From positions 1 to 64,000 of the forward strand of contig JAXLYG010000023.1 in NCBI GenBank assembly GCA_046351535.1: a stretch of DNA of 64,000 nt. Reading direction: 5' to 3'. The notes beneath the pieces were generated by a model, which was not told the origin of the DNA, ran no database searches, and saw nothing but the letters and a program-made list of their open reading frames with translations. The DNA comes from Polyangiales bacterium. GTDB taxonomy: Bacteria > Myxococcota_A > Polyangia > Polyangiales > Ga0077539. Shown piece by piece: positions 21,108 through 45,405 of this stretch (position 1 is its first letter; the number at the start of each line of letters is the position of its first letter). A program made the translations under genes and the position numbers.

Positions 21108-21345
21108 CGAAGGGCTCCCGCGTTGGGGCGGCGGTGCGGGCGGAGCGAGCGCGCGCGCGTCGGACGAGCGCGCAGGGCGCGACCTCGTCGCAGGACATGC
21201 GAGGAGGAGGAGGAGAGAGAGGCACCAGCGTCGCGTCACCGCGCCCACGGCGCGAATGAGAGCGACAGTGTGAAGAGCGTGTCAACGGCCCACCGCGCGA
21301 TGCGCAGCGCGCAGCGCGCGCGCCGACGCGCATCGACTTCGCGGG

Positions 21346-22194: not shown

Positions 22195-22245
22195 GGCGGT
22201 CTCTGTGATTTGCTGGAGGGAGTGGAGGGTGCCGCCGCGGAGCGC

Positions 22246-22797
22246 TCAGGCGCCGGGCGTGAACGAGCCGTAGCTGCGGTTGTGATAGGCGAGCGCGTCG
22301 GCCGCGCCCCCGAGGTGCATCGCGGTGACGTCGCCGAGGCAGAGCGTGTGATCGCCCGCGGCGACGAGCTCTCGCACCGTCGCGGACCACGCCCCGAGCG
22401 CGCCGGGCAGGAGCGGGACCCCGTGCGCATCGGGCGTCCAGGTGTGCACGGAGAAGGGCTCGCCGCGGCGGTCGTGGGGCGTGGCGAAGAGGTCGGCGAG
22501 GTGGCGCTGCCCGAGGGCGAGGTGATTCACCGCGAAGCACTCCGCGTCGCGCAGCATCGCGAAGGCGCTGCCCGCGTTCGAGGCCGACACCAGGATGATG
22601 GGCGGCGCCATCGAGACCGTGATGAAGCTCGTGGCCGTGAAGCCGTCGAGGAGCGGCGCAAATACCCCTACGGCGCCCTCGCGACGGCGCACCGTGATGA
22701 TCGAGACCCCGGCGGTCTGGACGCGCGCGAGGCGGCGATAGGCGTCGCCATCACCAGGGCCGAAATTCTCGAAGGGAGGCGACGTGGCGGCAGACAT
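22246..22797 (-). CDS. flavin reductase family protein (FMN-binding split barrel)
   Basis: ATG at 22797 (MSAATSPPFENFGPGDGDAYRRLARVQTAGVSIITVRRREGAVGVFAPLLDGFTATSF...). Typical HpaC/NADH:FMN oxidoreductase-like sequence. Confidence 0.8.
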   Translation of the reverse strand: MSAATSPPFENFGPGDGDAYRRLARVQTAGVSIITVRRREGAVGVFAPLLDGFTATSFITVSMAPPIILVSASNAGSAFAMLRDAECFAVNHLALGQRHLADLFATPHDRRGEPFSVHTWTPDAHGVPLLPGALGAWSATVRELVAAGDHTLCLGDVTAMHLGGAADALAYHNRSYGSFTPGA

Positions 22798-23084
22798 CGG
22801 CGCTGTCTCACTGGCGACGTGGTGACGAAGTTTTCGAAGAACTGATCGATGGGGTCGACGGAGCTCCTGGCGATGTCGCCGCTCCGACGCGTTGTGTACC
22901 CGTCTCGGGGAGGCCGCGCGAGGGTTTCTTTCGGTCGACGCCTCACGCTGCGGCCGAGGTCCGCCGTAGTGAAGGATGAGAGTCGACAAGTGATGGCTAC
23001 CTCACACGATCGCCGGTTCGAGCTTCGCGCAGTCGGCGCTGGCCCCCGCCAGACGCCCCAGATGAGCGGCATGGAGGCACTGGG

Positions 23085-25154
23085 ATGAGCGCAGATTCCG
23101 CCCTTTCGTCGGCTGCACCGGCGCTGTTCCCTCGGGAGCCGCGTCGCGTCGGCAAGTTCGATTTCCTCATGCGGCTCGGACAGGGCGGCATGGCGACCGT
23201 CTACCTGGCCCGAACGGTCAGCACGGGCGGCTTCCAGCGCCTCGTCGCGATCAAGCTGATGCACCAGTTCCTCGGGGCTGATGGGCAGTTCGTCGAGATG
23301 TTCCTCGACGAGGCCAGGGTGGCGGCCAACATCCGTCACCCCAACATCGTCTCGATCGTCGACCTGGGCACCGACGGCGACAACCTCTTCATGGTGATGG
23401 ACTACGTCGAGGGCGACACCCTCGCCGCCATCGAGGGAACCGCCGCCCGCCTCGGCCGCGCCATTCCCCTCGGGGTCGTCCTGCGGATCGTCCTCGACTC
23501 GCTCGCCGGCCTCGACGCCGCGCACGAGCTCAGGACGCCCGACGGCGTGGACCTCAAGGTCGTCCACCGCGACGTCTCTCCGCAGAACATCCTCATCGGC
23601 GTCGATGGTGCCGCGAGGCTCACCGACTTCGGCATCGCGCGCGCCGAGCAGCGCATCGCCACGACCCGCACCGGGATGCTCAAGGGCAAGGCGCCCTTCA
23701 TGGCCCCCGAGCAGTTCGAGGGAAAGCCCGTCGACCGCCGCGCCGACGTCTTCGCGATGGGCGTCACGCTCTGGGAGGCCGTCGCCCTCCGTCGCCTCTA
23801 TCCCGGCCGCGAGAGCTACGAGCAGGCCGTTCGCAACGCCCGCGCGCCGTACCGCAAGCTCAAGGACATCCTCCCGTCGGTGCCCGACAGCCTCGACGAC
23901 ATCGTCCGCAAGGCGCTCGCGCCCGACCCCGCCGATCGCTACCCCACGGCGGCCGCCTTCGCCGACGCGCTCGAAGAGGAGTTCCGCGCCATCCTCGCGT
24001 CGCACCGCCAGGTGGGATCGTTCATGTCGGCCGTCGCGTCGGAGAAGATCCAGCGCGAGCGCGACGCCGTTCGCAAGGCCCCGAAGCCCGAGGAGAGCAA
24101 CCCTCGCGCTGGCGGGCGGCCCTCGCGTTCGACCGCGTTCGGCATGCGCAGGGTCGACGAGCCCATCGCGCACACCGCCGCGAAGGCCTTCGAATCGAGG
24201 CCGCCGGAGCGCTTCCCCTCGGTGCCCCCGGAGCCGCCTGCGAACGACGTCTCGGAGGCCGACGACGACGAGGTCGAGGCCGCGCTCCAGGCGCTCAACG
24301 AGATGCCCGAAGACGTGGTCGAAGCCGCGGAGCTCCCGGTGCCGTCGCTGCACCGCGCGGCGACCCCGGCTCGGATGCGCTCCGAGGATGACCTCCCCGT
24401 GGCCCGCGGCAACACGCCGACGCGCAACGTGGGCCTCCCCGCGCGGCGCGCGCGCTCGTCGACGCTCATGCACCCGCCGCCCACGCAGACCGGCGCGCGC
24501 AAGAGCACACCCCCGCGCCTGAGGAGCACCGTCGCCAACGTCGACAACGCGCAGTTCCGCGGCGTCCCCAAGGCCCGCGGCACCATCGGCGCGCCGCCCG
24601 CCGCGCCCGCGAAGCACGACGAGCTCGACCTTCAGCCTCCGCGTCGCCGCAGGGCCCCCTCGCTCGCAGGACCGCGCGCGATGCTCGAAGCGCCGCGCAT
24701 GCCCCAGGAGCCCGTCGAGCCTCCCTCGCTCGACCTCGCGCCCGCGACGCCCGTGCCGCCGGCGCCCGTGCGTCCGAGCGTTCGCCCGCTCGGCGAAGGC
24801 ATCGCCGACTCGACCATCGAGTTCGATCTCGTCGCCCGGCAGGCGCGCAAGCACGGCGCCGAGAACAAGCTCCCGGCCACCACGATCACCGCGGCCAGCC
24901 GCGTCGAGCGCCCCCGCGCCGACGAGCGGAAGGTCAACAGCGAGGCGCGACGGCTCATCGCCGACACCGCGATCGTGCTCACGCCGACGACACCCGAACA
25001 GCCCGGCACGAAGCGTCAGCCGACGGCCGTGGCGCGCTTCCCCTCGCTCGTTCCGTCGCCGAAGACGAGCCTGCTCCAGAACCGCTGGGTCGCGGGGAGC
25101 GTCGTCGTCGCCGTGCTCTCGGTGGTCTTCTTCGTCCTCGCCCGCGGCCTCTGA
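23085..25154 (+). CDS. Ser/Thr protein kinase with C-terminal transmembrane anchor
   Basis: Hanks kinase motifs (LGQGGMATVYLA, AIK, HRDVSPQNILI, DFG, APE). Long Pro/Ala-rich linker. C-terminal TM helix (WVAGSVVVAVLSVVFFVLA). Confidence 0.9.
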   Translation: MSADSALSSAAPALFPREPRRVGKFDFLMRLGQGGMATVYLARTVSTGGFQRLVAIKLMHQFLGADGQFVEMFLDEARVAANIRHPNIVSIVDLGTDGDNLFMVMDYVEGDTLAAIEGTAARLGRAIPLGVVLRIVLDSLAGLDAAHELRTPDGVDLKVVHRDVSPQNILIGVDGAARLTDFGIARAEQRIATTRTGMLKGKAPFMAPEQFEGKPVDRRADVFAMGVTLWEAVALRRLYPGRESYEQAVRNARAPYRKLKDILPSVPDSLDDIVRKALAPDPADRYPTAAAFADALEEEFRAILASHRQVGSFMSAVASEKIQRERDAVRKAPKPEESNPRAGGRPSRSTAFGMRRVDEPIAHTAAKAFESRPPERFPSVPPEPPANDVSEADDDEVEAALQALNEMPEDVVEAAELPVPSLHRAATPARMRSEDDLPVARGNTPTRNVGLPARRARSSTLMHPPPTQTGARKSTPPRLRSTVANVDNAQFRGVPKARGTIGAPPAAPAKHDELDLQPPRRRRAPSLAGPRAMLEAPRMPQEPVEPPSLDLAPATPVPPAPVRPSVRPLGEGIADSTIEFDLVARQARKHGAENKLPATTITAASRVERPRADERKVNSEARRLIADTAIVLTPTTPEQPGTKRQPTAVARFPSLVPSPKTSLLQNRWVAGSVVVAVLSVVFFVLARGL

Positions 25155-25163
25155 ACCCGTCGC

Positions 25164-25655
25164 TCAGCTCCGCCCCTCCGCAGGCCAGAGGCGCCGAAAG
25201 CCGATGGCCAGCATGGCCCCGTCGGGCCGCGCGACCAGGGCTCCGTAGCGGCAGCGCTCGACGACGTGCCCCTCGGCCACCGCGCCGCCGCCGGCGTCGT
25301 ACAGCACCCGCCGCCCGCGCTCGATCGCACCAAACACCCGCGCGTCGGCCGACGCCTTGAGCATCTCGTCGGAGATCTCGCGCGTCGTCGCGTCGACCGC
25401 CACCACGACTTCGACGCGCGTGCGACGCACCACCGTGGCGCCGAGCCACACGTCGACCTCACGGTCGGTCTGGTGCAGCACCACGCCGAGCGAAGGGGGC
25501 TTGCCTTCGAGGCGGAGCTCGACGAAGCGTCCCGCGCCGAGGTTCGAAAGGGCCTCTCCGCCGAGGCGCTGACGCGCGCGTTCGAGGTGCAGGGGTCCGT
25601 CGTCGACGCGACCTTTGTGGTTCTGCGTGATCACCGGGAGCGAGCGCTTGGTCAT
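25164..25655 (-). CDS. hypothetical protein downstream of Ser/Thr kinase (163 aa)
   Basis: ATG at 25655 (MTKRSLPVITQNHKGRVDDGPLHLERARQRLGGEAL...). It is the only natural-looking part of the long 25164..27227 ORF. 53 bp downstream of the kinase stop and co-directional. Confidence 0.45.
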   Translation of the reverse strand: MTKRSLPVITQNHKGRVDDGPLHLERARQRLGGEALSNLGAGRFVELRLEGKPPSLGVVLHQTDREVDVWLGATVVRRTRVEVVVAVDATTREISDEMLKASADARVFGAIERGRRVLYDAGGGAVAEGHVVERCRYGALVARPDGAMLAIGFRRLWPAEGRS

Positions 25656-25708
25656 GGCGAGGCGCGAGTCTCTCGCGATGGAGCACCGCGCGTCGAGGGG
25701 CCCAGGGC

Positions 25709-27211
25709 TCAGGCTCGCAGAACGCGCACCAGCGCGATGACCACGCAGGCCGCCACGAAGATCACCCACGCCGCGACGGGGACGCGCCGACGCCGCGCCG
25801 CGCGGTTCGACTCCGTGGGAGGGCTCTGCAGCGGCGTCCAGCGCACGGGTTCGAGGGCCACCTCGACGTGCTCGACCTCGCGGTCGTCGATCACCTCGAT
25901 GGAGAGCGGCGCGACGGCCTCGGGCGGCACGGGAGTCGGGGTGGCGCCGACCTTTCGCTCCATCGGGAGCTCGCGCGTGACCGACTCGTCGGGGTCCGCC
26001 ACGCGCTGCGCGGCCTTCGGAAAGAAGCGGCTCGCGGGCGCGTTGGGGTCGGGCGCCTCCATCGATACGCGCCGACGCTGCGGCACGAGCGGGATCGGTT
26101 CGAGCACCGACGCCTCGAGCATCTCGGTGACCGACGGGAGCTTCGGCTGCGGCGCGGCGACCTGCGGCGGCGGGCGATCGGAGCCGCCCGCCACACGACG
26201 CGGCGCGGCCCTCAACGCCGCGCGCTCGCGATCGAGCTTCTCGCGCGCCACCGCGGCGATCAGGGCGCCGACCTCGCGCGACGACGCGAGCGTGGGGCCG
26301 AACGCCTGCTCGATCGCGTCGGCGAAGGCCGCCGCCGTGGGGTAGCGATCGGCGGGGTCGTGCGCGAGCGCCTTCGCGCAGATCTCGTCGAGCACCGGCG
26401 GCGCGCCCTTGAGAAAGCCGCCGAGCGGACGGTACGGGGCCCGCGCGTTCTGCCGCGCGCGCTCGTAGGTCTCGCGCCCCGTGAAGAGGCGACGAAGCGT
26501 GAGAGTCTCCCAGAGCGTGACGCCCATCGCGAAGACGTCGGCGCGGCGATCGAGCTCCGTCGCCTCGAGCTGCTCGGGGGGCATGTACGACAGCTTGCCC
26601 TTGAGCATCCCGAGGGAGGTCGCGACGAGGCGGCCGCGCGCCCGCGCGACGCCGAAGTCGGTGAGCCTCGCGGTGCCGTCGACGCCGATGAGGATGTTCT
26701 GCGGGGTCACGTCGCGGTGGACGAGGCTGAGGGGCTCGCCGCGCTCGTCGCGGAGCTCGTGCGCAGCGTGGAGCCCCGAGAGCACGTCGATCGCGATGCG
26801 CAGCGCGATGGGGATCGGCACGCCCTTTCCGAGCGCCGTCGCCGTGGACTGCACCGCCGCGAGGGTGTCTCCCTCGACGTAGTCCATCACGTTGTAGAGC
26901 AGGCCGTCTTCCATCCCCACGTCGAGAATGCTCACGACGTTGGGGTGGAGGATGTTGGCCGCGACGCGCGCCTCGTGGAGGAACATGTCGACGAAGCCGC
27001 GATCTTCGGCCAGGTGGGGGTGGAGCACCTTCACGGCCGCGAGGCGCTCGAAGCCGCGGTCGTCGCGCATGCTCCCGACGGCGCGCGCGAGGTAGACGTT
27101 CGCCATGCCCCCCGCGCCGATGCGCTCGATGACCTCGTAGCGACCGACACGGAAAGGCAGCGACCGCCCGGCCACACGTCGCGCGTCTTGCTTGGGGCGT
27201 TCTGCGGTCAT
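25709..27211 (-). CDS. Ser/Thr protein kinase with C-terminal transmembrane anchor (paralog of 23085..25154)
   Basis: IGAGGMANVYLA, AVK, HRDVTPQNILI, DFG, PPE motifs. C-terminal TM helix (VPVAAWVIFVAACVVIALV). The catalytic domain is highly similar to the convergent kinase. Confidence 0.9.
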   Translation of the reverse strand: MTAERPKQDARRVAGRSLPFRVGRYEVIERIGAGGMANVYLARAVGSMRDDRGFERLAAVKVLHPHLAEDRGFVDMFLHEARVAANILHPNVVSILDVGMEDGLLYNVMDYVEGDTLAAVQSTATALGKGVPIPIALRIAIDVLSGLHAAHELRDERGEPLSLVHRDVTPQNILIGVDGTARLTDFGVARARGRLVATSLGMLKGKLSYMPPEQLEATELDRRADVFAMGVTLWETLTLRRLFTGRETYERARQNARAPYRPLGGFLKGAPPVLDEICAKALAHDPADRYPTAAAFADAIEQAFGPTLASSREVGALIAAVAREKLDRERAALRAAPRRVAGGSDRPPPQVAAPQPKLPSVTEMLEASVLEPIPLVPQRRRVSMEAPDPNAPASRFFPKAAQRVADPDESVTRELPMERKVGATPTPVPPEAVAPLSIEVIDDREVEHVEVALEPVRWTPLQSPPTESNRAARRRRVPVAAWVIFVAACVVIALVRVLRA

Positions 27212-27315
27212 CGTGAAAGACGCCCACAACGGACGCGTCCTGCGTCTATCGTAACCGTTCTCGCGCGGTGCCGCGATGTCTCGCGGCGCCTCCCTCACGC
27301 GGAGCGCCGCGCGGG

Positions 27316-28740
27316 TCATGCGCCCCTCGTCCCGTCGACCTCGAGCATCATGAAGAGTCGTTCGACGTCGGGCGTCGCCACGAGGAGGGCCTCGACCTCG
27401 CCGTCGTGAAGGGCGCCGCCGTCGTACGCGCGCACCGTCACCCGACCGCCCTCGCGCGACACGGCGACGCGCACGGCGCCGGTGGTCGTCCACTGCGCGC
27501 GGTGGGCGAACGGACGCTCGTGCGGCCCCGGCGCGTCGTCGGGCAGCGCGGGCCGCGTCGCGCCCTCGGGCGGCTCGGTCAACGGCGGAACCGAGGGCGT
27601 GACCGCGAGCACGAGGCCCTCGAGCTTGTGCTCCTCCGTCGACCTGTCTTCGACGCGCGGGGGCTCCGGCGCAGACACCGGCGGCGCTTCCTTCGCGTGC
27701 GGAACCGTGAGCGGTCGCGGCGGCGTGGCGGTCCGCGGCATTGCGAGCGGCGTGAGGAACTTTCGATCGAAGCGGGGTCGATCGATGACCTCGTCGCGAG
27801 GCTCCTCCGCGCGCTTCTCGGCCGCGTCGTGCGCGGCCATCACGTCGATCTTCGAGGGCGCGTCGGAGGGCACCGTCACGCGCGTCGAGGCGTCTTCGAC
27901 CGCGAGCCTCGCAGCCTCGGCCACCAGCGCCTCCGACGGGCTCGCGGGAGCCTCGGTAGGCACCCTGGGCGCGGGCCTCGACGAGTCGTCGCTCCGCGTG
28001 CTTCGAAGCGGCGGCCTCGCCGTCGCGGTTCGCAGCCCGGCAGGCGGACGACTCGAACGGTTTCGTCCCGTGATCGGCCGCGGCGGCGCGGTGCGCGGAA
28101 CCGGCGGCGGCAGCGGAACGGACAGACGCTTCGCGGGCGCCTCGTCGACAGGCGCGGCGGCGACGGGCTCGGGCTCTCGGAGCTCTCGCGGCGCGGGCGC
28201 GGCGCTCGTCGCAACAGGCTTCACCGAAGCCGTTTCCTGTGACGCCGCGACGGGCGGAGGGTCCGACGTGACGGGCGGAGGCGCGGGGTTCGCGACGGGC
28301 GGAGGCGTGGGGCTCGCGACGAGCGGAGGCGCGGGGCTCGCGACGGGCGGAGGCGCGGGGCTCGCGACGGGTGGCGTCACGCTCGCGACCGGCGGAGGCG
28401 CGGGACTCACGACGGGCGCGGGCGCGTGAACAACGGGCGGAGGCACGGTCCCCGCGTTGGGCGAGGGCAGCGCGGTGACCGTCGCGGGCGGCGCCGCCGT
28501 CGAGGTCGCAGAGGGCTTCGCGCTCGGCGCGGGTGGCACCAGCGAGGCGATCGCGGCGGCGGACTTCGAGAGCTCCAGACCGCGCTCGTCGAGGCCCGCT
28601 TCGAAGGCCTCGTCGACGGCCTTCCGCAGCCATTTCATCGCCTCGGCCTGCTCTCCGCGGGACCACATCGAGGCGCCCACCTCGAGCGCGGTCACCACCG
28701 AGTCGGGATCAGCTTCGAGCGGTTCGGGATAGTCAGCCAT
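27316..28740 (-). CDS. proline-rich repeat protein (474 aa)
   Basis: Globular N-terminal region (MADYPEPLEADPDSVVTALEVGASMWSRGEQAEAMKWLRKAVDEAFEAGL). Long Pro/Ala-rich region with tandem PAPPPVAS octapeptides. Globular C-terminal ~70 aa (AQWTTTGAVRVAVSREGGRVTVRAYDGG...). Upstream of and co-directional with the second kinase. Confidence 0.65.
   Translation of the reverse strand: MADYPEPLEADPDSVVTALEVGASMWSRGEQAEAMKWLRKAVDEAFEAGLDERGLELSKSAAAIASLVPPAPSAKPSATSTAAPPATVTALPSPNAGTVPPPVVHAPAPVVSPAPPPVASVTPPVASPAPPPVASPAPPLVASPTPPPVANPAPPPVTSDPPPVAASQETASVKPVATSAAPAPRELREPEPVAAAPVDEAPAKRLSVPLPPPVPRTAPPRPITGRNRSSRPPAGLRTATARPPLRSTRSDDSSRPAPRVPTEAPASPSEALVAEAARLAVEDASTRVTVPSDAPSKIDVMAAHDAAEKRAEEPRDEVIDRPRFDRKFLTPLAMPRTATPPRPLTVPHAKEAPPVSAPEPPRVEDRSTEEHKLEGLVLAVTPSVPPLTEPPEGATRPALPDDAPGPHERPFAHRAQWTTTGAVRVAVSREGGRVTVRAYDGGALHDGEVEALLVATPDVERLFMMLEVDGTRGA
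28250..28430. repeat. 24-bp tandem repeat (~7 units) encoding PAPPPVAS octapeptide repeats
   Basis: Repeating unit gcgacgggcggaggcgcggggctc with point variants, read directly in the sequence. It lies in-frame inside CDS 27316..28740. Confidence 0.8.
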
Positions 28741-28851
28741 GGCAGTGCTTCAAACGGTACTCTCGCGGCGTCCGTCGACGCACCTTCTCGGCGTCTTTCT
28801 GCGCCGCGCGCGTTGACAACGCTCGCGCGCGTCCGCGACACACATCCCTCG

Positions 28852-29169
28852 ATGCGCGAAGCCTCCATAAAACGCGGCCCCCGCTACGCCACCGCAGCCG
28901 CCGCGCTCGTCGCGCTCGCGCCGACGGTCTACCTCGTCGTGCGCGGCATCGCCCATCGACGCGCGCCCGAACCCGACCCCACCGTGATGCTCTGGACCGA
29001 GCGCTCGACGCTCGTCGGCCGCGTCGCGGTGACGGGCTACGTCGTCTTCGCGCTCGTCGCCCTCGTCGCGCCCTGGCTCGCGCGCCGCCCCGCCGCCGCG
29101 GCGCGAGCCTTCGACGTGAGCGTCGCGGTGAGCCTCGTCGCGGCGCTCGTCGCGGGCTTCGTCCGATGA
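28852..29169 (+). CDS. small membrane protein (105 aa)
   Basis: ATG at 28852 (MREASIKRGPRYATAAAALVALAPTVYLVV...). Two or three hydrophobic helices. The stop overlaps the next ATG (ATGA). Confidence 0.4.
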   Translation: MREASIKRGPRYATAAAALVALAPTVYLVVRGIAHRRAPEPDPTVMLWTERSTLVGRVAVTGYVVFALVALVAPWLARRPAAAARAFDVSVAVSLVAALVAGFVR

Positions 29170-29531
29170 GGGCCACGGCGTGGATCGTCGTGTGCGCCTC
29201 GGCCTCTTCGCTCGCGGCGTCGCTGGGCGGAGCGCGCGTCGGCCCCGCGCGGGCTCGGTGGGCGGCCCTCGCGGTCTCGGTCGCGGGCGTCGCCGCGATC
29301 CTCGCGACGCGGCACGGGTGGGAGTTCGAAGTGCGCCGTCCGCTGTGGCTCCTCGACGCGGCGAAGGGGCGCTGGCTGGAGCGCGGCGTCGAGTGGTCGC
29401 TCTCGTCGCTCGCGCTCCTCGGCGCGGCGGGGCTGCGGGCCTTCGGTGAACCGATGACGGGGCGCGCGTGGTGGGCCTCGTCGGCGCTCGCAGCCGCCGC
29501 GCTCGGGGCGCTGGCGTGGGCCTCGTCGTGA
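29166..29531 (+). CDS. small membrane protein (~121 aa)
   Basis: MRATAWIVVCASASSLAASLGG... with several hydrophobic segments. Translationally coupled to the upstream small ORF. Confidence 0.4.
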   Translation: MRATAWIVVCASASSLAASLGGARVGPARARWAALAVSVAGVAAILATRHGWEFEVRRPLWLLDAAKGRWLERGVEWSLSSLALLGAAGLRAFGEPMTGRAWWASSALAAAALGALAWASS

Positions 29532-29534
29532 CGG

Positions 29535-30551
29535 CTACGACGCTTCGGCGATGGGCTTCGCGGCGGGCGCGACGGCCCTGACCGCGTCGCGGAGCTTCGC
29601 GTAGAGGGCGGGGTTCGACAGGAGGGCCTCGCGGCACTTCTCGCGGCCGTTGCCGACGTGCGCGCCCGCGAAGGTGAGGTGCGAGCCCGAGCGCTCGAGC
29701 ACGCCGCGGTCGACGCCCGCGTCGAGCACCTCGGAGACCGCGTCGATGCCCGCGCCGTAGCGCACGTCGAACTCGGCCTCGCGGAAGGGCGGCGCGAGCT
29801 TGTTCTTCACGACCTTCACGCGCGTGCGGCTGCCCTGCACCTCGTCGCCCGACTTGAGCGCGCCGACGCGGCGCACGTCGAGGCGCATCGAGGCGTAGAA
29901 CTTCAGCGCGTTGCCCCCGGTGGTGGTCTCGGGGTTGCCGAACATCACCCCGATCTTCATGCGGAGCTGGTTGATGAACATCACGCACGCGCCGTTGCGG
30001 TGCGCCGCCGCCGTGAGCTTGCGGAGCGCCTGCGACATGAGCCGCGCCTGGAGGCCCGGGAGCTGGTCGCCCATGTCTCCGTCGAGCTCGGCCTTCGGGA
30101 CGAGCGCCGCCACGGAGTCGACGACGATGAGGTCGACGGCGCCCGAGCGGATGAGCGCGTCGGCGATCTCGAGGGCCTGCTCGCCCGTGTCGGGCTGCGA
30201 GATGAGGAGCTCCGCGAGGTTGACGCCGAGGGCCTTGGCGTACGCGGTGTCGAGCGCGTGCTCGGCGTCGATGAAGGCCGCCACGCCGCCCATGCGCTGC
30301 ACCTCGGCGATCGCGTGGAGGGTGAGCGTGGTCTTGCCCGAGCTCTCGGGGCCGTAGACCTCGACGATGCGCCCGCGGGGGTAGCCTCCGATGCCCAGGG
30401 CGGCGTCGAGGGAGAGCGACCCGCTGGGGATCACGGCCTGCGGCTCGCGCTCGCCCTCGTCGCCGAGGGTCATGATGGTGCCCTTGCCGAACTGCTTCTC
30501 GAGCGCGTTGATGGCCGTGCGAACCGTGCGGAACTTCTCGGTGATGTTCAT
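29535..30551 (-). CDS. recA: recombinase RecA
   Basis: ATG at 30551 ([27 protein letters not shown]). Walker [10 protein letters not shown], then FIDAEHALD and VDSVAAL. Unmistakable RecA. Confidence 0.95.
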
Positions 30552-30649
30552 GGCGTTGGTCTCTCTCTCCGTGAGGTCGGTCACTCGGGCGGCGCCGGTC
30601 TTCGGCGCGCCACTGACGGAGCCTCGGGTGTAGGCGCCGTACCATCGCG

Positions 30650-30664
30650 TGAAACACCTTGTTT
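30650..30664. promoter_or_regulatory. putative SOS (LexA-type) operator palindrome upstream of recA
   Basis: GAAACACCTTGTTTC is a perfect GAAAC-N5-GTTTC inverted repeat ~100 bp upstream of the recA start. It resembles the GAAC-N4-GTTC class of LexA boxes. Confidence 0.3.
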
Positions 30665-30811
30665 CCAGGCACTTCACAAAGCAGGGTAGCGGAAAGGGTG
30701 AGGAGGGTGGCGAGGGTGGCGGGCCCGCCACCCCGGGCGCGCGAAGACGGTTCGTGCGCGCCCGCGGAGGCGGAGGTGGTGTATAGACCTCGCTCGACGC
30801 AAATGGCCGAA

Positions 30812-32190
30812 ACGAAGTCGGATCCTCATCGTCGACGACGAGGCGAACGCGCGCGCGGCGCTCTCAGGAGATCCTCGTGAGAGGAGGCTACGGACGCCGA
30901 GACCGCCGCCGATGGCTTCAAGGCGCTCGGCAAGATCGGGTCGTTCTCGCCCGATCTCATCCTCCTGGACCTCAAGATGCCTGGCCCTCGACGGGATCGA
31001 ATGCTTGAAGGCCCGCGCGGCGTCGCCCACCACCGTGGTCGTGGTGATGACCGCCTTCGGCACCATCGACTCCGCCGTCGAGGCCATCAAGGCCGGCGCC
31101 GAGAACTACCTCACCAAGCCCCTCGACCCGGTGACCCTCGTCGCCGTCGTCGAGCGCGCGATGGAGAAATCGAAGCTCCTCGAAGAGACCGCGCTCCTGC
31201 GGGAAGCGGCTGCGCGGTACAACGCCTTCAGGCGCATCGGCGAGCGTCGATGAAGGCCCTCCTCGACACGGTGGCGCAGGTCGGCGTGAGCCGGTCGAGC
31301 GTGCTCATCGTGGGCGAGTCGGGCACGGGCAAGGAGCTCATCGCCGCGGCCCTCCATCGCTCGTCTCCGCGCGCGCCGCAGCCCTTCGTGCGGCTCAACT
31401 GCGCAGCCCTCGCGGAATCGCTGCTCGAGAGCGGGCTCTTCGGTCACGGCGGCGCCTTCACGGGCGCCATCGGGCGGCGCGAGGGCGCTTCCGTCGAGCC
31501 CGACGGAGGGACGCTCTTTCTCGACGAGGTGAGCGAGATCCCGCTAGCCACGCAGGTGAAGCTCCTGCGCTTTTCTTCAAGGAGCGCGAGTTCGAGCGCG
31601 TCGGCGGCAACGAGACCCTCAAGGTCGACGTGCGCATCCTCGCAGCCACAACGCATCGACCTCGAGCGCGCGTCCATCGCCGATCGTTCCGCGGAGCCTC
31701 TTCCTCCGCCTCAACGTCATCCGTCTGGAGATTCCCTCGCTGCGTCAGCGGCGGAGCGACATCCGCTGCTCGCGGGCTTCTTTCCTCAAGCGCTACAGCC
31801 AGGAGAACGCTTGCCGACCTCGCCGACCTGCCGAAGACGCCCTCCAGCGGCTGATGGTGGCCGGGCAACGTGCGCGAGCTCGAAAACGCGCACCATCGAG
31901 CGCGGCGTGGTGCTCGCCCGCGCGAACTACGTCGAGGCCGACAACCTCCCGCCGGCCCTCGCCCCCTCGCCCTCGCAGCGAGGCGCCGCGACGCGGTGAC
32001 GCCTGTGCCGGGAGCACCATCACGAGACCTCGAACGCCACGCCATTCTCGAGACGCTCAAGGCCATGAGCGGGAGCACTTCAGAAGCCGCGCGCATCCTC
32101 GGGATCTCGCCGCGCAAGATCCGGGTACAAGCTCGAGTACCCGGGAGAGCGGGCGGATCGACGGCCCCACAGCCGCCGGACGACCGGTGA
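30812..32190 (+). pseudogene. sigma-54-dependent Fis-family response regulator (NtrC-like), disrupted by multiple frameshifts
   Basis: REC, AAA+ sigma-54 activator and HTH segments are all present but split over all three plus frames (ORFs 30659..30880, 30912..31253, 30977..31999, 31630..31854, 31870..32190). Recognisable pieces include [14 protein letters not shown] / [13 protein letters not shown] / [18 protein letters not shown] / [23 protein letters not shown] / GNVRELEN / EAARILGISPRKIRY. At least ~10 single-base indels are needed to restore one frame, several of them in homopolymer runs. Confidence 0.7.
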
Positions 32191-32638
32191 TGTCTTCAAG
32201 TGAGCGCGCGGGCGCCGCGGTCGGTGTTGCTGAATGCCGGGAACAGGCACGGGCGAGAGCTGCAGGCGCTCGGCGACGCTGCCGAGAAAATTGAGCCGGT
32301 CGAGGCCCCTGCGCGCCTCGCTGGCCGCGACGATCACGTCGCCGCCCTTGTGCACGTACGAGATGAGCTCCTCGGCAGCGCGGCCGCGCACGACGCCGTA
32401 GTCGACGTGGGCGTGGTGGTCGCGCGGCCGGGCGCTGATCTGCTGGAGGCGCTCCTCGATGTGGAGCATGGCGTCGTTGTCGCCGCCGGGCGACGCGCGG
32501 TGGGCCTCGTCCGTGGCCTCGGGGAGCACGTGCACGAGGATGGTGGTGCCGTGCGTGGACTTCGCGAGGTTGATCGCCACGCCGACCGCGCGATCGGTCT
32601 TCGGGGTGAAATCGATGCCGACGATGACTTTCTTGAAC
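32080..32638 (-). CDS. universal stress protein (UspA family)
   Basis: GTG start near 32638 with GGGAGGA SD (VFKKVIVGIDFTPKTDRAVGVAINLAKSTHGTTILVHV...IVAASEARRGLDRLNFLGSVAERL). The ORF continues to 32080, well past the expected Usp C-terminus, and overlaps the 3' end of the sigma-54 pseudogene, so the true stop is uncertain. Confidence 0.7.
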
Positions 32639-32718
32639 ACGTTCGTTCCTCCCGTCGAAGGAATTCCGTTGGGCGGCGGTACTTCCCACAATCGCCCGCC
32701 GTTGGCGATGGTCGAGCG

Positions 32719-32985
32719 TCAGCGCGCTGCGGGATCTTCGGGATCACTCTTCGGGGGCGGCTGAGACGAGGCGCTTGGGGTCGCGCGCTCCGCATCCTCT
32801 CGGAGCTTGTCTGCGGGCGCGCGGCGAAGGTCGCGACCTCGCGGCTCCTCTCCGACAGCCACTTCGCCCTCGCGACCGAGGCGCGCGAGGGCGCCTTCGG
32901 CCTCTTCGAGCGAACGGCTCACCTGCGGCTCGACCTGGCTCGCGACCTTGCGCGCCGCGGCAGAAGTGGGTGGGCCTCGGCTCAT
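32719..32985 (-). CDS. possible small hypothetical protein (88 aa)
   Basis: ATG at 32985. Charged E/R/A-rich sequence with no SD and no family. It could be a spurious ORF. Confidence 0.25.
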   Translation of the reverse strand: MSRGPPTSAAARKVASQVEPQVSRSLEEAEGALARLGREGEVAVGEEPRGRDLRRAPADKLREDAERATPSASSQPPPKSDPEDPAAR

Positions 32986-33480
32986 CGATGCCGTTGCGCT
33001 CGGCCGGGACTTTGGGATCTTCAGGGGTGGTCATCTGCGTGTCTCCGTGTGGCCTCCACGCGAGGCGTGCACGACCTGCTGCACGACGCGGCGAAGGGAC
33101 TGTGAAGGGATTTGTGGCCGTTCGGGAGGTCGAGAGGTTGTAGGTCGCGATGTCGTCGGCGTTGTTCTCCAGGTGCCGACTCGATGAGGGCGCGACGCAC
33201 TGAATCGCCGCGGGGTTGACCCGTCAGCGTGGCTCACGGCGCCGGTGCTGTCGCGCACCGGAACTGCACGCGCGTCGCGGGTGACCGCGAACAGCCCCGC
33301 AGACACTCGAGGAGCCGCGCGCGCGGCGAAGCCGCCCTCGATGGCCTCGGCGTTGAGCCGCGCGGGCGCTTGAAGGCCATCGACGCCGCCCGACGACAGG
33401 CGCCCGAGCCGTTGTTCGCCGTGGCCGTGGCGGTCTGCGTGTCGCCGTTTCTCACGCGCGTCCACGGCGTTTCAGGCTGA

Positions 33481-35261
33481 TCAGGGCGGCGCGGGGTGCG
33501 CGGCGATCTCGTCGAGCACGCGACGCTCTGCGGGGCCTCCCATCGCGCCGACGGCGAGCACGGCCTGTTCGAGCGCGGCGTCGAGCGGGTCTTGTTCGCC
33601 GACGTGGCGATCGTCGATGAGCTCTCCGCCACCCACGGGTGGGAGCATCCCGGTGTCGGCGTGGTAGAGCCGCAGGAAGTCGACGAGGGGCGCGACCGCG
33701 GCGGTGTCACCGAGCTCCCGCAGCGCCGCGACGACCTGGGGCAGATCCGCGGACGGGGTCGCCGGGTCTTGAAGGTGCGCGATGAGCGCGGGAACAGCCC
33801 TGCGCTCATGCGCCGCAGCGACACCGCGCGCGAGGAGCCCCACGGGCGGCACGGCCACGTCGCGGACGTAGTCTTGATGGACCGCCAGCGCTTCGAGCAT
33901 CGCCTCGGCGCCGTTGGTGCGGTGCGTGATCGCCTCGCCCGCAGCGGCGCGGAGCTCCTGCGGATACTGCCGGTGCGTGAGCACGGCGACCAGGGCGTGC
34001 GTGGCCTCGGCCGCGTCGATCTCGATGAGCGTGCGCACGGCGAAGAGCTGCGCGGGCATGAGCCGCGTGTCGGTCCCCCCCGCCGCGAGGAGCAGGTCTT
34101 CGACGAGGGAGCGCGCGGGTTCACCCGCCGCCCCGCCGCTCGGCGCGAAGTCCGCCGGGACGCGGATCACCGCCTGCGCGGTCGGCGTGTTGAGCTCGGC
34201 GCGCCACTGGACTCTCCCCGTGTTCGCGTCGATGAAGCTCGCGTGTCCGCCGTCGTCGATCACCGTGACGCCGCCGCGCGAGACCTCGAGGCCCGCGATG
34301 TCCGCGGGGCTCACGAGCGCCCACTTCACCGCGCTCGACTGCGCGTCGATCGCGAACACGTCACGGTGAAAGACCGAGTACACCGAGTTGTTGAGCAGCG
34401 TCACGCCGGGCGCCACACCGTCGGGTCGCCACGCGAGGCGCACGCGCTCCCTCGCGTCGAGGCCCGCGTTGAGCGTCACGTAGGGGTCGTTCATGAAGGG
34501 CGGATCGCCGGGCAATCCCGGCCGTGAGAACGCGAAGCGCTGCGCGTTGGCCGAGCGTCCGTCGGCGAGCTCGGGCCCGAAGCGATAGAGGGCGCGCGCG
34601 CCGATCCAGACCGTGGGGCCCTCGCGCCGCGCGAAGCCGAAGGTGTCGTCGCGCGAGCGAACGCGCGCGATCTCGTCGCCGCTCGCGGCGTCGAAGACCG
34701 AGAGGTTCTGTCCGTCCCACGGAACGTAGAGGTCTCGCGCGACGAGCACCGGGACACCGAACGCGTGCGACTCGGGGCGCTGCACGATCGAGGACCCCGA
34801 CGCCGCGTCGACCACGAGGAGCGCGCCGCTGCGACGCGTGACGCCCGCGCCGCCGAGGGTGATCGCGACGCGTCCTTCGTCTTGCGACGCGCCCACGAGC
34901 GAGTAGCCGCGGTCGGGCACGCGCCAGTGCTCACGGCCGTCGAAGCCCCACGCGATGATCGAGCCGGGCTCGCGCGCGAGCACGAGGTCGCCCGCGATCA
35001 CGGGGCGTCCGGTGATGGCCGCGCCGACCTGACCGAGCCGAACACCCTCGGGCAGGCTGAACACCGTGAAGCCCCGCGCGGGCGCGGGCGGAACGATCAC
35101 CGCCACGGCGGGTCCCTCGGCGGATCCGTTGCTCGCGCGGGCGACGATGGCCGAGAGATCCGCCGACGAGGAGGGCGCGTAGGCGAGGCCGAAGGCGCCG
35201 TGCGTTCCCGCACTGCACGCGACCAGCGACGCGAGCGCGGCGATGGAGATGAAGCCCCTCA
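33481..35261 (-). CDS. lipoprotein with beta-propeller (PQQ-like) N-region and HEAT/armadillo-like C-region
   Basis: ATG near 35261 (MRGFISIAALASLVACSAG: lipobox LVAC). Repeated W/G-containing beta-blade motifs (WGFDGREHWRV; VKWALVSPAD; VQWRAELNT). C-terminal helical repeats (ALIAHLQDPATPSADLPQVVAALRELGD). ATGA overlap with the upstream gene. Confidence 0.7.
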
Positions 35262-36103
35262 TGACCCGCCTCCCGGCTCTTGAATGCGCTGCGCGTTGGC
35301 GCGCGCGAGGTCGACCCACCGCGCGGGGCGACCGTGGTGATTCGTCGCCGCGCGCAGGAGGAACTCCCTCGCCTCGCCCGTCGCGAGGCTGCCCACGGTG
35401 TTCACCACGCGCTCCTTCACGCTGTCGGGGATGTTGTCGCGCTCCAGCGCGATCTCGAAGGCCTCGGTGAGCGACTGCAGCGGCGCGCGTCGCAGATATC
35501 CGAGGAGCCGCTCGATGTCGTCGGCGCTCGATAGACGCGCGATCGAGTGCGCGCACCCGCGGATGAGCGGCGTGCCCTCGGAGTGGAGCGAGGTGCCGAG
35601 CTCGCGGTCGAGCGCGGTCCAGAGCGATCCGAGGGCGGCGCGATCACCCATGTCTCCCAGGGCCATCGCAGCGTCGCCGCGCACCTCGACGTCGGGGTCT
35701 CCGACGCGGGTCTCGACCGCGCGCGCGAGCGACGAGCCTCCGATGGCCACCGCCGCCGCGATCGCGTGACGACGAAGACCCGGCCTGCGGTGCGAGAGAA
35801 AGCGCTGAACGGCGAGCGCCCCCTCGGGGCGCGCGAGGGCCGCGAGCGCGTGCAGTCCGTAGGCTGCGACGTGGGGCTCGACGCCGTGGAGCAGGGCCGC
35901 GGAGATGTTCCTCGCGGCGGCCGCGGGCTCACCCGCAGCGGCCTGCTGCATGCGCTGCAGGAGCGCGTCGGAGTCGTTCATGTTCCACCACGCGGGCACG
36001 CCGGCGTTGGGCGCGTCGTGCTCGTGGGTGACCTGCTGCGCCGCGGCGACGGGCGCGAACGCCAGCGTCGCCAGGACGATCAACCCGACACATGGGGCCC
36101 GCA
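35259..36103 (-). CDS. secreted HEAT-repeat protein
   Basis: ATG near 36103 (MRAPCVGLIVLATLAFAPVAAAQQ: signal peptide). Repeats of the form GDPDVEVRGDAAMALGDMGDRAALGSL are HEAT/PBS-lyase-like. Confidence 0.65.
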
Positions 36104-36168
36104 TGGGCGCGACGATACACCATCCCGCGGGGGGCGAAACGCCCTTCTGCGCAGGGGTTTGCGCGAGG

Positions 36169-39100
36169 TCACTCCTTGCGTCGCGGCGCACCGGGCGGCG
36201 GAGGCACGTCGCCGCCCGAGGGGACGAAGGTCAACGCAGCGAGGGCGTCGAGCGAGGGCGCGTCGTCGGAGTCCGAGAGGCTCACCTCGACGTCACCCGC
36301 ATCGACCTCCTCGGCGTCCGAGACGCTCAGCTCGTCGAGGGCGTCGAAGGGAGAGGGTGCAGGCGGTGCAGACGCCTGGGGCTCCGCAGGAGGCGCAGGG
36401 GGCGCCGACATCCGCGGCAGCGGCGGCGGGAACGACGGCGACGGATCAGGCTGCGCAGCCGCGGCGACGGGCGCGATGGGCGCAGGCGCGGCGGGCCACA
36501 CGGGGCGAACCTCTTCGGCATCGGCGACGAACTCCGCCGACACCTCGGGCGCGTCGAGGAAGCTCTGCCCCGCAGGGTTCGCCTCGCTCACGCTGGGGAA
36601 CGAAGGCGGCGAGGGCATCCGCGGCGGAGACACCTGCGCGAGCGCGGCCCCGAGGTTCGCAGGCGGCGGCACCGTCGGCGTCTCGGCGACATCCTCGTGG
36701 AAGCGAAGCGGCGGGGCCTCGGCGCTCGCATCACCGAACGACGACGCGCCGAAGAGCGGCTGCGCGGCGGGCGCGACCGGCATCGCAGGAGGCGCCTCGT
36801 ACGCGGGCTGCTGCGCGTACTCGGGCTGCGCCGGATACTGCGGCGGCGCGACGAACTCGGCCTGCGCCGGGTACTGCGGCTGCGCTTCGTACTGCGGCTG
36901 GGCTTCGTACTGCGGCTGCGCTTCGTACTGCGGCGCGGCCTCGTACTGCGGCTGCGCCTCGTAGGTCTGCGCGACCTCGTACGAGGGCGCGGCGTCGAAC
37001 ATCACCGTGGGCGGATCGTCGGCGGGGATGTTCCCTCGCTGCGTGACGGAGCCCTGCTCCTCCTCGGGCGCCGACGGGACCACGGGCGTCGTCGTCGCGG
37101 GCTCCGCGGGAGCCTCCTCGAAGGCCATGAGGTCGGCCTCGATGATCGTGGGCCTGCGCTCCAGGCGTTCGAGCGCGGCCTTCGCCTCCTCGTCGCCGGG
37201 GGCCATCTTCAGCACGCGGCGCCAGATGTCGCGCGCTTCGAAGACGTTCTTGATCCGCGTCTCCCAGATCACCGCCATGCGACGCATCACCGCCGCGCGG
37301 TCTCCGCCCGCGTCGATCTCACGCTCGAGCGCCATGAGCAGCGGCTGCCAGCGCTCGTGACGCTCCAGCAATGACTGGAGCGCGCGCAGCACGTCGATGT
37401 CCTTGGGGGCGAGCTCGGCGAGCCGCTGGTACGCCTCGATGGCCTCCTCGACGCGACCGAGACGGTCGGCCAGGAGCGACGCGCGACGCCCCGTGTACGT
37501 GCGCGCGGTGCGAGCCTCGTAGGCCTCGTCGATCACCTTGCGGTAGAGGGTCACCACCTCGCCGAGACGGTCCGCGCGACCCGCGGCGTCTTCGAGCGCA
37601 GCGGCGCCGCGGACGTCATCGGGCCACACCGAGACCGCGCGGGTGTAGAGCCCGAGCGCGTGATCGAGGAGCGCGAGCTCCTGCTCACACAGCGCGCCGG
37701 CGCGACGGAGCAGCACGGCGCCCACGCGGGGGTTGTCTTCGACGGCGTCTTCCGCGAGGCGCGCGTAGCGCTCGACGAGGCCCGAGACCATGCCCGCGTC
37801 GGCGCGACGCTGGTCGGCCTGGATGCAGGCGTTCTCGACGCGCGCGAGCATCTCCTCGTCGGGCTCCTTGCGGCCCACGGCCTGACCGATGGCCTGCTCG
37901 ACGTACTGAAAGGCCGTCTCGCGGTCACCGAGCGAGCCGCCCGCGGTCTCGGCCGCGCGGAGCGTCACGCCGAAGCGCTCGGAGTCCGACTGCGCCGCCT
38001 TCTTGCGGCGATCGAAGGCCACGAAGAGGTCCGCGTGGCGCTTCGCGTTGGGCACCAGCCGCACCACCGCGTCGAGGATCTCGTCGTCGGCAGGCGCCTT
38101 CGCGAGCGCCGCGAGCGCGAACTCGAAGGCCTGCGCCCGGCCGCCGCTGCCCTCGATGGCGTTGAGGCCGCGCATCGAGAGCTCGTGCGCGAGCGTCGGA
38201 TCGGTGCACCCGTCGAGCGCGGCTTTGTACGCCTCGGCCACGCGCTGCGGGCGCTTGACCTTCGAAGCGAGCGCGTCGATGTGCGTGAGGTCCTCGGCGT
38301 CGACCTTGGCCACCGCGGCGCTCACCCACGCTTCGAAGGCCCCCTCCGGGTCACCGAGGAAGGTCTCCTTGCGCCGCGCCACCTCGCGCCAGAGCATCGA
38401 GCGCCCTTCGCGGTCGCTCACGCGGTTCGAGAGCTCCGAGAGGATCGGCACGAGCGCCGCGTGGAGGTCACGCTTGTTCGACAGGTCGAGCATCATCTCG
38501 ATGCACGCGACGTCGCCGCTCTTCACGGGCGCGATGAGCACCTCCCAGGCGCGGTGCGCGTCGTCGAGCTTCTCATCCGAGAGGTGCGCGATGCGCTGCG
38601 CGAGCTTCGAGATCTCCTCGTCGTCGCCCTCGATCTCGATGAGCTGATCGAGGTAGCCCACGGCCTCGCGGTAGCGCCCCTCGGCCTCGCACATGTCCGC
38701 GAGGCGCTGGATCACACCGAGGTCGCCCTGATCGGCGCGGTGCTGGATCTCGAGCGCCTTGATGATCGCCTCGGGCGTCTTGACCTCGCGCTCGACCATC
38801 GTCACGAGTCGCGAGGCGTGATCGGCGCGACGCTCGTCGTCCTCTTCGGGCGTGAGGTCGACCTGACGCTCGATGGCCTCCGACGCCACGTCCCAGCGAC
38901 GCGCTTCGAGGGCCATCTTCTCGAGGAGCTCCCAGGTCTCGGCGTGATCGGCGCCGTGCTCTCGCGCGGCCGCGGCGAGGGCGTCGACGGCCTCGTCGAC
39001 CCGACCGAGCTCCGTCGCGAGGAGCTGCGCGCGACGCTTGAGGATCTCGCGCTTCGCCTCGCGATCCTTCGCGGCGGCGGCGGCTTCGATGAAGAGCCCC

Positions 39101-41316: not shown

Positions 41317-41382
41317 CGCGAGCGGCGCGACGGTATCACGCTGCGACCCGGCCGGAACAACTCCCGTCGAGCCTTCGAAGTG

Positions 41383-42786: not shown

Positions 42787-42825
42787 GTCGTCGCCGGTAT
42801 CACGGCGCGAAGTGGAAGGTGAAAT

Positions 42826-43682: not shown

Positions 43683-43719
43683 TGGCGGGCAACGGTGCTC
43701 GAAAGAGGGGCGCCGTGCA

Positions 43720-44576: not shown

Positions 44577-44584
44577 GGTGAGGG

Positions 44585-45145: not shown

Positions 45146-45405
45146 CGGACACTCCGCGAGCGAACCGCCGCCGTCGAACGCACCGCGCGCCCTCCTCCGC
45201 AGTCACTCACAAGAGGCGGGAACGGCCACGTCTCGGAGTTCTTGAACGCTTTTTGAATTTTTCTCTCCGTCCCTCCCATGCGTCATGAGGATGCGCGCTC
45301 GACGCGGCGCGTCTCTCCGAAGATGTGATTTTTCGTGTGAGGTCACGAAGGAACGAAGCATCGGGTACCTCTCCCCCGCGTCGCGCGTCTGCGAAGCGAT
45401 GCCGG

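What the first reader, a model, noticed from the sequence alone, without database searches (positions are those of the whole stretch)
30812..32190. Sigma-54-dependent response regulator shattered by at least 10 frameshifts (pseudogene or localized low-quality sequence)
All three domains of an NtrC-like activator are recognisable but spread across three frames. Many breakpoints sit in short homopolymers (tcaGgag, ctggcCctc, cgcttTtct, caagG). An intact recA lies immediately upstream. Elsewhere in the window only the YceI gene shows a comparable lesion, and that is a single one. Either this is a genuinely decaying regulator, or a patch of indel-rich sequence from homopolymer-type sequencing error. 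The two explanations have different implications for every other call in the window.
Basis: seen in the sequence. Interest (0 to 1): 0.55.

Follow-up and report, generated by a model that had tools for sequence, protein, structure and literature searches.

The report
Garbled 2.9-kb assembly patch, not pseudogene
The broken NtrC-type regulator gene lies inside a 2.9-kb stretch of indel-riddled sequence that also damages three neighbouring genes. The stretch is intact in two other assemblies of the same species, so it is most likely an assembly or consensus error in this metagenome-assembled genome, not a decaying gene.

Summary
Window 30803-32190 encodes an NtrC-type sigma-54 activator (REC, AAA+, HTH_8). 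Reading it needs at least 14 net frame changes, and it has 27 indel-bearing lesions against a conspecific copy.

The lesions are not confined to this gene. They fill a contiguous block, about 30628-33497. The block also covers the recA-ntrC spacer, a universal stress protein gene (Usp), a conserved 108-aa ORF and the last ~125 codons of a PQQ-repeat gene. Both edges are abrupt.

The damaged sequence is in the public record. The GenBank MAG (Polyangiales bacterium, locus tags U0326_) lists the stop-less Usp and the truncated PQQ protein.

Short-read contigs of the same species (98.6-99% identity, one activated-sludge sample) carry all four genes intact. Across about 20 kb of flank they show no small indel against the window.

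Against them the block has 55 indel-bearing and 12 multi-base lesions. Isolated point differences are as frequent as in the flank (6.8 vs 7.2 per kb) and as often synonymous (75% vs 78%).

Real decay should add many point substitutions, so a local consensus artefact is favoured (about 0.78). The remaining probability goes to a very recent real multi-gene inactivation. One fact fits neither: all five Usp indels preserve the reading frame.

The parts
30628..33497 (.). Lesion patch: a contiguous block of about 90 short lesions (indels, indel+mismatch scrambles, multi-base changes) with abrupt edges
   Evidence: Against conspecific contig L088 the first lesion is at 30628, after 10.7 kb without small indels. 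Against L090, 30700-33497 holds 86 events, 55 indel-bearing, net -69 nt. Then 33498-42940 holds none except one 18-nt tandem-repeat unit. L089 shows the same edge.
30803..32190 (+). Remnant of an NtrC-type sigma-54-dependent response regulator gene (REC, AAA+, HTH_8). As written, translation from the ATG stops after 25 codons ([25 protein letters not shown]).
   Evidence: Three-frame translation. DP alignment with 14 net frame changes. Pfam domains. 44 lesions, 27 with indels, against the intact 470-aa conspecific gene in L090.
30628..30802 (.). recA-ntrC divergent spacer, the left end of the patch. It is G-rich, and conspecific short-read contigs L088 and L090 both end here (30707 and 30696).
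29535..30551 (-). recA, intact; marks the clean left flank (the GenBank product starts at the GTG at 30584, 349 aa)
   Evidence: DP alignment: 0 frameshifts, 93.5% aa identity to the L001 RecA. The exact 349-aa product is MFO0648758.1.
32080..32640 (-). Universal stress protein gene, in frame but damaged. It has five net-3n indel lesions (-6,-3,+3,-3,-3) and a replaced ~25-nt block. An invariant Trp and the terminal PVLVV strand are lost. The stop is changed TGA>CGA, which extends the ORF to 32080. The part equivalent to the ortholog is 32224-32640.
   Evidence: Pfam Usp. The exact 186-aa product is GenBank MFO0648761.1.
32722..33034 (-). Remnant of a conserved 108-aa ORF with 3 net frameshifts
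   Evidence: DP alignment. The ORF is intact at 108 aa in L001, L085, L086, L087, L002, L089 and L090. Protein alignment.
33122..33497 (-). Damaged 3' end (last ~125 codons) of the PQQ-repeat/HEAT protein gene: at least 5 net frameshifts and 2 in-frame stops
   Evidence: DP alignment. Lesion list. Relatives encode 717-721 aa.
33498..35262 (-). Undamaged 5' part of the same PQQ-repeat gene; marks the clean right flank. The annotated product (33481-35262, 593 aa) is the truncated form.
   Evidence: No frameshift and high identity over the first ~590 aa (92.2% for the whole protein). The exact 593-aa product is MFO0648762.1.

Best explanation
The shattered regulator is part of a 2.87-kb stretch (about 30628-33497) of low-accuracy consensus in the deposited MAG contig. 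The organism most likely carries intact ntrC, Usp, 108-aa ORF and PQQ-repeat genes, as its conspecifics do. Shown: the block's extent, its lesion spectrum, its presence in the GenBank record, and its absence from independent assemblies of the same species. Inferred: the technical cause. One possibility is that a gap between accurate contigs was bridged with noisy, unpolished or very low-coverage sequence, for example a long-read gap fill. This would fit the short-read assemblies of this species, which break in the G-rich recA-ntrC spacer about 70-80 nt from the left edge of the block.
For: 1) The lesions ignore gene and strand boundaries. They begin in a spacer and end inside a gene whose first ~590 codons are untouched. 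2) Conspecific short-read contigs carry intact ntrC (470 aa), Usp (143), ORF108 and PQQ (720). L088 and L090 come from one activated-sludge sample and are 98.6-99% identical to the window in the flanks; L089 is about 97% identical. 3) Flanks of 10.7 kb and 9.4 kb against those contigs contain only two indels, both whole repeat units (27 and 18 nt). The block holds 55 indel-bearing events in 2.8 kb. 4) Lesion spectrum against L090: 24 pure indels, 31 indel+mismatch scrambles, 12 multi-base changes and 19 isolated SNVs in the block, against 68 SNVs, 10 MNVs and 1 indel in the flank. Isolated SNV density is 6.8/kb in the block and 7.2/kb in the flank. Coding SNVs are synonymous in 12 of 16 cases in the block and 53 of 68 in the flank. 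The point-substitution record is therefore that of genes under normal purifying selection. 5) All frameshifting indels are unique to the window lineage when polarised with an outgroup. 6) A lesion-spanning 57-mer has no match in the JGI metagenome contigs. 7) Established knowledge: small-indel frameshifts are the typical residual error of long-read (meta)genome assemblies where polishing coverage is lacking (bioRxiv 10.1101/2021.08.23.457338 and PMC9262707, abstracts seen).
Against: No read data, coverage or assembly method for the MAG could be examined, so the technical cause is inferred. All five indel lesions in Usp are net multiples of three, against 10 of 49 elsewhere (post hoc P about 3e-4); random error does not predict this. 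Perfect stretches of up to ~200 nt between lesions are not what a uniformly noisy read gives. Lesions are not motif- or homopolymer-specific. The rest of the contig is clean, so a special local cause must be assumed.
Confidence: 0.78

Rival explanations
1. Real, very recent multi-gene inactivation. In this population ntrC, the 108-aa ORF and the 3' end of the PQQ gene are true pseudogenes, produced by many small indels. Usp is kept in frame by selection.
For: The sequence is what the public record holds. Every Usp indel is frame-preserving while neighbouring genes are frameshifted, which looks like selection on a reading frame. A conspecific pair (L001 and L085) also differs by a single 1-nt indel that lies inside ntrC, so this regulator may be prone to loss. 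A truncated PQQ protein could keep its function, which would explain a clean 5' part.
Against: There is no excess of isolated point substitutions, and the synonymous fraction is unchanged. Spontaneous mutation spectra are dominated by point substitutions (general knowledge), so 55 indel events should come with hundreds of them. Conspecifics at 99% identity are intact. The damage forms one contiguous block with an edge inside a gene and lesions in the spacer. The Usp changes remove residues that are invariant in all relatives, and its stop codon, so Usp does not look selected for function. The lesions are clustered scrambles, not dispersed mutations.
Confidence: 0.13
2. An artefact of a different kind: a chimeric consensus. 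The assembler or polisher mixed reads from paralogous sigma-54 activators or from co-occurring related populations, garbling the sequence, rather than copying a noisy read.
For: Short-read contigs of close relatives end inside ntrC at the conserved WPGNVRELE-coding motif (L089 ends at 31871) or just upstream of the gene (L088, L090), which suggests repeat-induced graph breaks. The lesion at 31884 turns ELEH into the paralog-typical ELEN, with a 19-nt match to a Polyangiales paralog.
Against: The block extends 1.3 kb beyond ntrC into single-copy genes. Lesion k-mers match other loci no more often than control regions do (about 7% in each). Replaced blocks match neither the conspecific nor the sister-species allele. 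Mixing real alleles does not by itself create frameshifts.
Confidence: 0.08

Closest known systems
NtrC-family bacterial enhancer-binding proteins (sigma-54-dependent response regulators; myxobacteria carry many paralogs)
   Same: The conceptual translation has REC, a sigma-54 AAA+ domain with Walker A GESGTGKE and GAFTGA, AAA_lid_14 and a Fis-type HTH_8. Orthologs of 454-516 aa are conserved across Polyangiales-like MAGs, next to recA in every relative locus examined.
   Different: As written, the gene cannot be translated beyond 25 codons and has 27 indel-bearing lesions. Residues invariant in orthologs are changed: ESELFGHERGAFTGA became [14 protein letters not shown], and LILTDLKMPG became [10 protein letters not shown].
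Residual indel errors and frameshifted genes in long-read or hybrid (meta)genome assemblies
   Same: Dense small insertions and deletions break ORFs, with no matching rise in point differences, and they are absent from short-read assemblies of the same organism. The phenomenon is described in 10.1101/2021.08.23.457338 and PMC9262707.
   Different: Here the damage is confined to one 2.87-kb block in an otherwise clean contig. Many lesions are multi-base scrambles rather than homopolymer length errors. The sequencing platform of this MAG is unknown to me.
Genuine bacterial pseudogenes from relaxed selection (for example in Mycobacterium leprae or host-restricted Salmonella; from general knowledge)
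   Same: Multiple frameshifts and stops in a recognisable gene whose orthologs are intact.
   Different: True decay gives gene-bounded damage, an excess of non-synonymous and other point substitutions, and lesions shared by related strains. None of these is seen here.

Membership tests
NtrC-type sigma-54-dependent response regulator | N-terminal receiver domain with the phospho-acceptor Asp | tested here: met
   Pfam Response_reg 3.9e-28 on the stitched translation; profile positions 55-110 on ORF 30912-31253. The Asp of ...DLKMPG is present.
NtrC-type sigma-54-dependent response regulator | Central AAA+ sigma-54 interaction domain with Walker A, GAFTGA loop and Walker B | tested here: met
   Pfam Sigma54_activat 3.3e-54. 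[14 protein letters not shown] and LFLDE are visible in frame. The two residues before GAFTGA are altered.
NtrC-type sigma-54-dependent response regulator | C-terminal Fis-type HTH (HTH_8) | tested here: met
   Pfam HTH_8 5.7e-09 on the stitched translation and 4.8e-07 on ORF 31870-32190.
NtrC-type sigma-54-dependent response regulator | One uninterrupted reading frame encoding all domains | tested here: not met
   At least 14 net frame changes; 27 indel-bearing lesions against the intact conspecific gene. This applies to the deposited sequence and probably not to the organism.
True pseudogene (biological decay) | The same lesions present in independent assemblies or strains of the lineage | tested here: not met
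   L089 and L090 (97-99% identity) lack every lesion where they overlap. A lesion-spanning 57-mer is absent from the JGI metagenome contigs.
True pseudogene (biological decay) | Relaxed selection seen as an excess of point substitutions and a lower synonymous fraction | tested here: not met
   Isolated SNVs 6.8/kb in the block against 7.2/kb in the flank. Synonymous 12/16 against 53/68.
True pseudogene (biological decay) | Damage bounded by the gene | tested here: not met
   The block runs from the spacer at 30628 to codon ~590 of the PQQ gene at 33497 and crosses four genes on both strands.
Local assembly/consensus artefact | A contiguous block with abrupt edges unrelated to annotation, flanked by accurate sequence | tested here: met
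   No small indel in 19937-30620 or in 33498-42940 against conspecific contigs; 55 indel-bearing events in between.
Local assembly/consensus artefact | An indel-dominated error spectrum | tested here: met
   67 of 86 events are indels, scrambles or multi-base changes; the flank has 1 indel in 79 events.
Local assembly/consensus artefact | Lesions random with respect to reading frame | tested here: inconclusive
   True for ntrC, ORF108 and the PQQ 3' end. All 5 Usp indels are net 3n.
Local assembly/consensus artefact | Low or atypical read support (coverage drop, single noisy read, gap-fill record) | not testable with these tools
   No reads, coverage or assembly metadata are available. Only the GenBank protein accessions and the contig length (185,138 bp) were recovered.

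The most novel reading that the evidence does not exclude
The lesions are real. A wild Polyangiales population suffered a localised burst of indel-rich and complex mutations over one 2.9-kb block, which destroyed an NtrC-type regulator and its neighbours, while selection kept the embedded Usp gene in frame. This would imply an unknown block-restricted, indel-biased mutagenic or repair process.
Probability: 0.05. Interest if true: 0.6.

Novelty: not a real feature. Interest (0 to 1): 0.12.

Why it matters
The finding bears mainly on data quality. Three database entries probably do not describe real gene states: the pseudogene call for this regulator, the 186-aa stop-less Usp (MFO0648761.1) and the 593-aa truncated PQQ-repeat protein (MFO0648762.1). 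Any inference that this lineage lost the recA-adjacent NtrC-type regulator would be unsafe.

For the scan itself, the result limits the problem. Outside 30628-33497, the roughly 20 kb that could be checked against conspecific contigs has no small indels, so other calls there need not be discounted. The rest of the window could not be checked in this way.

Tried and rejected
1) A genome-contig scan with P0001 was swamped by sigma-54 activator paralogs. The best hit was 62% identical, and neither the source nor close relatives were returned.

2) RecA (338 aa) and p474 look-ups in the contig index found nothing. The source was identified through exact protein look-ups instead.

3) Gap-friendly pairwise scoring (57 indels in ntrC) was rejected as a count, because control genes also gained spurious indel pairs.

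4) The GC3 phase plot and the codon-model Viterbi segmentation flagged the patch and YceI but were too coarse to find single frameshifts elsewhere.

5) The paralog-chimera test with lesion 14-mers gave matches at the control rate.

6) Motif and k-mer enrichment at lesions (a possible methylation-type systematic error) found nothing convincing.

7) The transition/transversion ratio and the GC>AT direction did not discriminate.

8) Two metagenome scans, one with a lesion 57-mer and one with a clean 54-mer, both returned nothing.

9) Rfam on the whole window found no family.

10) Programmed frameshifting was considered and dismissed: there are far too many shifts, in both directions, and conspecifics are unshifted.

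Full report
**What is at the coordinates.** The window is about 70% G+C. A three-frame translation of 30780-32230 shows pieces of one NtrC-like protein spread over all three + frames. These include [29 protein letters not shown]...[13 protein letters not shown]...[24 protein letters not shown], the Walker A and GAFTGA region, [36 protein letters not shown] and the HTH segment. Pfam places Response_reg, Sigma54_activat and HTH_8 on separate ORF fragments. It places all of them plus AAA_lid_14 on a stitched translation.

The closest intact homolog is P0001 (470 aa). A frameshift-aware protein-to-DNA alignment against it spans 30803-32187 and needs 14 net frame changes. Several further short compensated shifts are absorbed as mismatches. 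recA (29535-30551, minus strand, divergently oriented) is intact.

**The damage is larger than the gene.** The locus is collinear with relatives: kinases, small ORFs, recA(-), ntrC(+), Usp(-), a 108-aa ORF(-) and a 717-721-aa PQQ-repeat gene(-). ntrC is intact in nearly all of them; the one exception is noted under "Other frameshifts" below.

A pairwise alignment with the ~90%-identical locus L001 gives no frameshifting indel in coding DNA from 20.8 to 30.5 kb or from 33.5 to 35.6 kb. From 30.8 to 33.5 kb such indels are dense. At the protein level:
- The 108-aa ORF needs 3 frame changes.
- The last ~125 codons of the PQQ gene need at least 5 and contain two stops.
- The first ~590 codons of the PQQ gene are clean.
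- Usp stays in frame but has five window-specific in-frame indels and a replaced block. It has also lost an invariant Trp, its terminal beta strand and its stop codon.

**The source, and whether the lesions are in the public record.** Exact-sequence look-ups match a GenBank MAG named "Polyangiales bacterium" (locus tags U0326_, contig 185,138 bp). The matches are:
- p474 = MFO0648755.1
- RecA (349 aa) = MFO0648758.1
- the stop-less 186-aa Usp = MFO0648761.1
- the truncated 593-aa PQQ protein = MFO0648762.1
- the next gene = MFO0648763.1

The damaged sequence is therefore what was deposited. From U0326_21110 (p474) to U0326_21155 (the next gene) there are nine locus-tag steps but only eight protein accessions, so one of the intervening loci has no protein. 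That fits one annotated pseudogene.

**Conspecific references.** Two contigs from one activated-sludge sample (ENA ERZ937806, run DRR046817) belong to the same species.
- L088 covers window 19937-30707 at 98.6% identity. It has a single 27-nt in-frame repeat indel up to 30620, and lesions begin at 30628.
- L090 covers 30696-42940. In 33498-42940 it differs by 89 mismatch columns in 9443 nt (99.06% identity) and one 18-nt tandem-repeat unit. It encodes an intact 470-aa NtrC, a 143-aa Usp, the 108-aa ORF and a 720-aa PQQ protein.
- A third contig, L089 (Logan SRR33769814), covers 31871-43750 at about 97% identity in the flank. It gives the same right edge and the same lesions.

The patch is therefore about 30628-33497, or 2870 nt.

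**Lesion spectrum.** Against L090, the stretch 30700-33497 holds 86 events, with a net length change of -69 nt:
- 24 pure indels
- 31 indel-plus-mismatch scrambles
- 12 multi-base changes
- 19 isolated SNVs

ntrC alone has 44 events, 27 of them with indels. The 9.4-kb flank has 68 SNVs, 10 MNVs and 1 repeat-unit indel.

Outside the lesions the block matches its conspecifics almost perfectly, with stretches of up to ~200 nt. Isolated SNV density is the same inside and outside the block (6.8 against 7.2 per kb). The coding SNVs are synonymous in 12 of 16 cases inside and 53 of 68 outside, and all 12 synonymous changes in the block are at third codon positions.

With an outgroup (L002), all frameshifting indels map to the window lineage. 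The apparent excess of window-unique substitution columns (ntrC 123 against 17) comes from the scrambled segments, not from dispersed point changes.

**Interpretation.** Neutral decay of real pseudogenes is driven mostly by point substitutions (general knowledge of bacterial mutation spectra). Fifty-five indel events should come with a large excess of isolated, frame-independent substitutions, and none is seen. The point-substitution record is that of genes under ordinary purifying selection.

The damage also forms one contiguous block. It starts in a spacer, crosses genes on both strands, and stops inside a gene whose other 1.8 kb is untouched. Conspecifics at 99% identity lack every lesion.

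I therefore read the block as a local consensus artefact in the MAG contig (confidence about 0.78). The cause is inferred, not shown.
- Short-read assemblies of this species break in the G-rich recA-ntrC spacer. L088 ends at 30707 and L090 starts at 30696 with a poly-G tip.
- L089 ends inside ntrC at the conserved WPGNVRELE-coding motif.
- So a gap here bridged by noisy, unpolished or very low-coverage sequence is plausible.
- Small-indel frameshifts are the known residual error of long-read (meta)genome assemblies where polishing support is missing (abstracts of 10.1101/2021.08.23.457338 and PMC9262707).

**What does not fit.** All five indel-bearing lesions in Usp are net multiples of three, against 10 of 49 elsewhere in the block (post hoc P about 3e-4). 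Random error does not predict this. Selection on Usp function does not either, because the changes remove invariant residues and the stop codon.

The lesions are also not classic homopolymer errors, and no k-mer is enriched at them. A test for paralog-derived micro-chimeras gave matches at the control rate.

These points keep a real, very recent multi-gene inactivation alive at about 0.13 and a chimeric-consensus variant of the artefact at about 0.08.

**Other frameshifts.** The YceI gene (59653-60446, minus strand) is split by one frameshift near 59893. Pfam YceI profile positions 5-87 are in one frame and 89-150 in another. No conspecific reference was available to judge it.

In the sister species, L085 and L001 (99.56% identical) differ by a single 1-nt indel in 14.7 kb. 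It lies inside ntrC and shortens the called product to 403 aa.

**Verdict.** The "low-quality patch" reading is favoured over the "decaying regulator" reading. The feature is ordinary and of low biological interest. It is useful as a caution about three GenBank annotations, and it shows that the checked part of the window (about 20 kb of flank) is reliable.

Noticed in passing
window 59653-60446 (minus strand), break near 59893: The YceI-like gene is split by a single frameshift, apparently one extra base in ...ATCGAGTGTGGGCGG.... Pfam YceI profile positions 5-87 and 89-150 fall in different frames. No conspecific reference was available, so it is undecided whether this is real or an error.
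   Followed up: partly
L085:10001-11212 versus L001:10001-11413 (difference at L001 position 10201): In the sister species, two 99.56%-identical assemblies differ by one 1-nt indel in 14.7 kb. It lies inside the same ntrC ortholog and cuts the called product to 403 aa in the 719-kb-contig MAG.
   Followed up: partly
window 30696-30707 (ends of L088 and L090) and 31871 (end of L089): Independent short-read assemblies of this species break in the G-rich recA-ntrC spacer (L090 ends in a 20-nt poly-G tip) or inside ntrC at the conserved WPGNVRELE-coding motif. This locus is hard to assemble from short reads.
   Followed up: partly
window 43700-53200: A lower-GC stretch (0.61-0.68 against about 0.72) with short ORFs, weak coding signal under the local codon model and strongly negative GC skew at 52-53 kb. 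Rfam finds nothing. The conspecific contig L089 ends at 43750, at its edge, so this may be a strain-variable island.
   Followed up: no
window 36792-36997: An 18-nt tandem repeat array (about 9.6 copies) near the 3' end of a very large gene (1482-1721 aa in relatives). Copy number differs between strains (an 18-nt unit against L090; 28/19/37-nt gaps against L085).
   Followed up: no
window 13629-14486 (+): An ORF with an N-terminal PAAR motif and a Peptidase_M91 effector domain (Pfam 1.7e-10 and 3.9e-16), which looks like a secreted toxin/effector.
   Followed up: no
window 28325-28351: A 27-nt in-frame insertion, relative to conspecific L088, in the Pro/Ala-rich repeat region of the 474-aa protein (MFO0648755.1). 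It is ordinary repeat-length variation.
   Followed up: no
window 45406-46155 (minus strand): Two ORFs (111 aa and 120 aa) lie in the same frame, separated by one stop and about 50 nt. The coding signal runs across both, so this may be a gene with an internal stop or two small genes.
   Followed up: no
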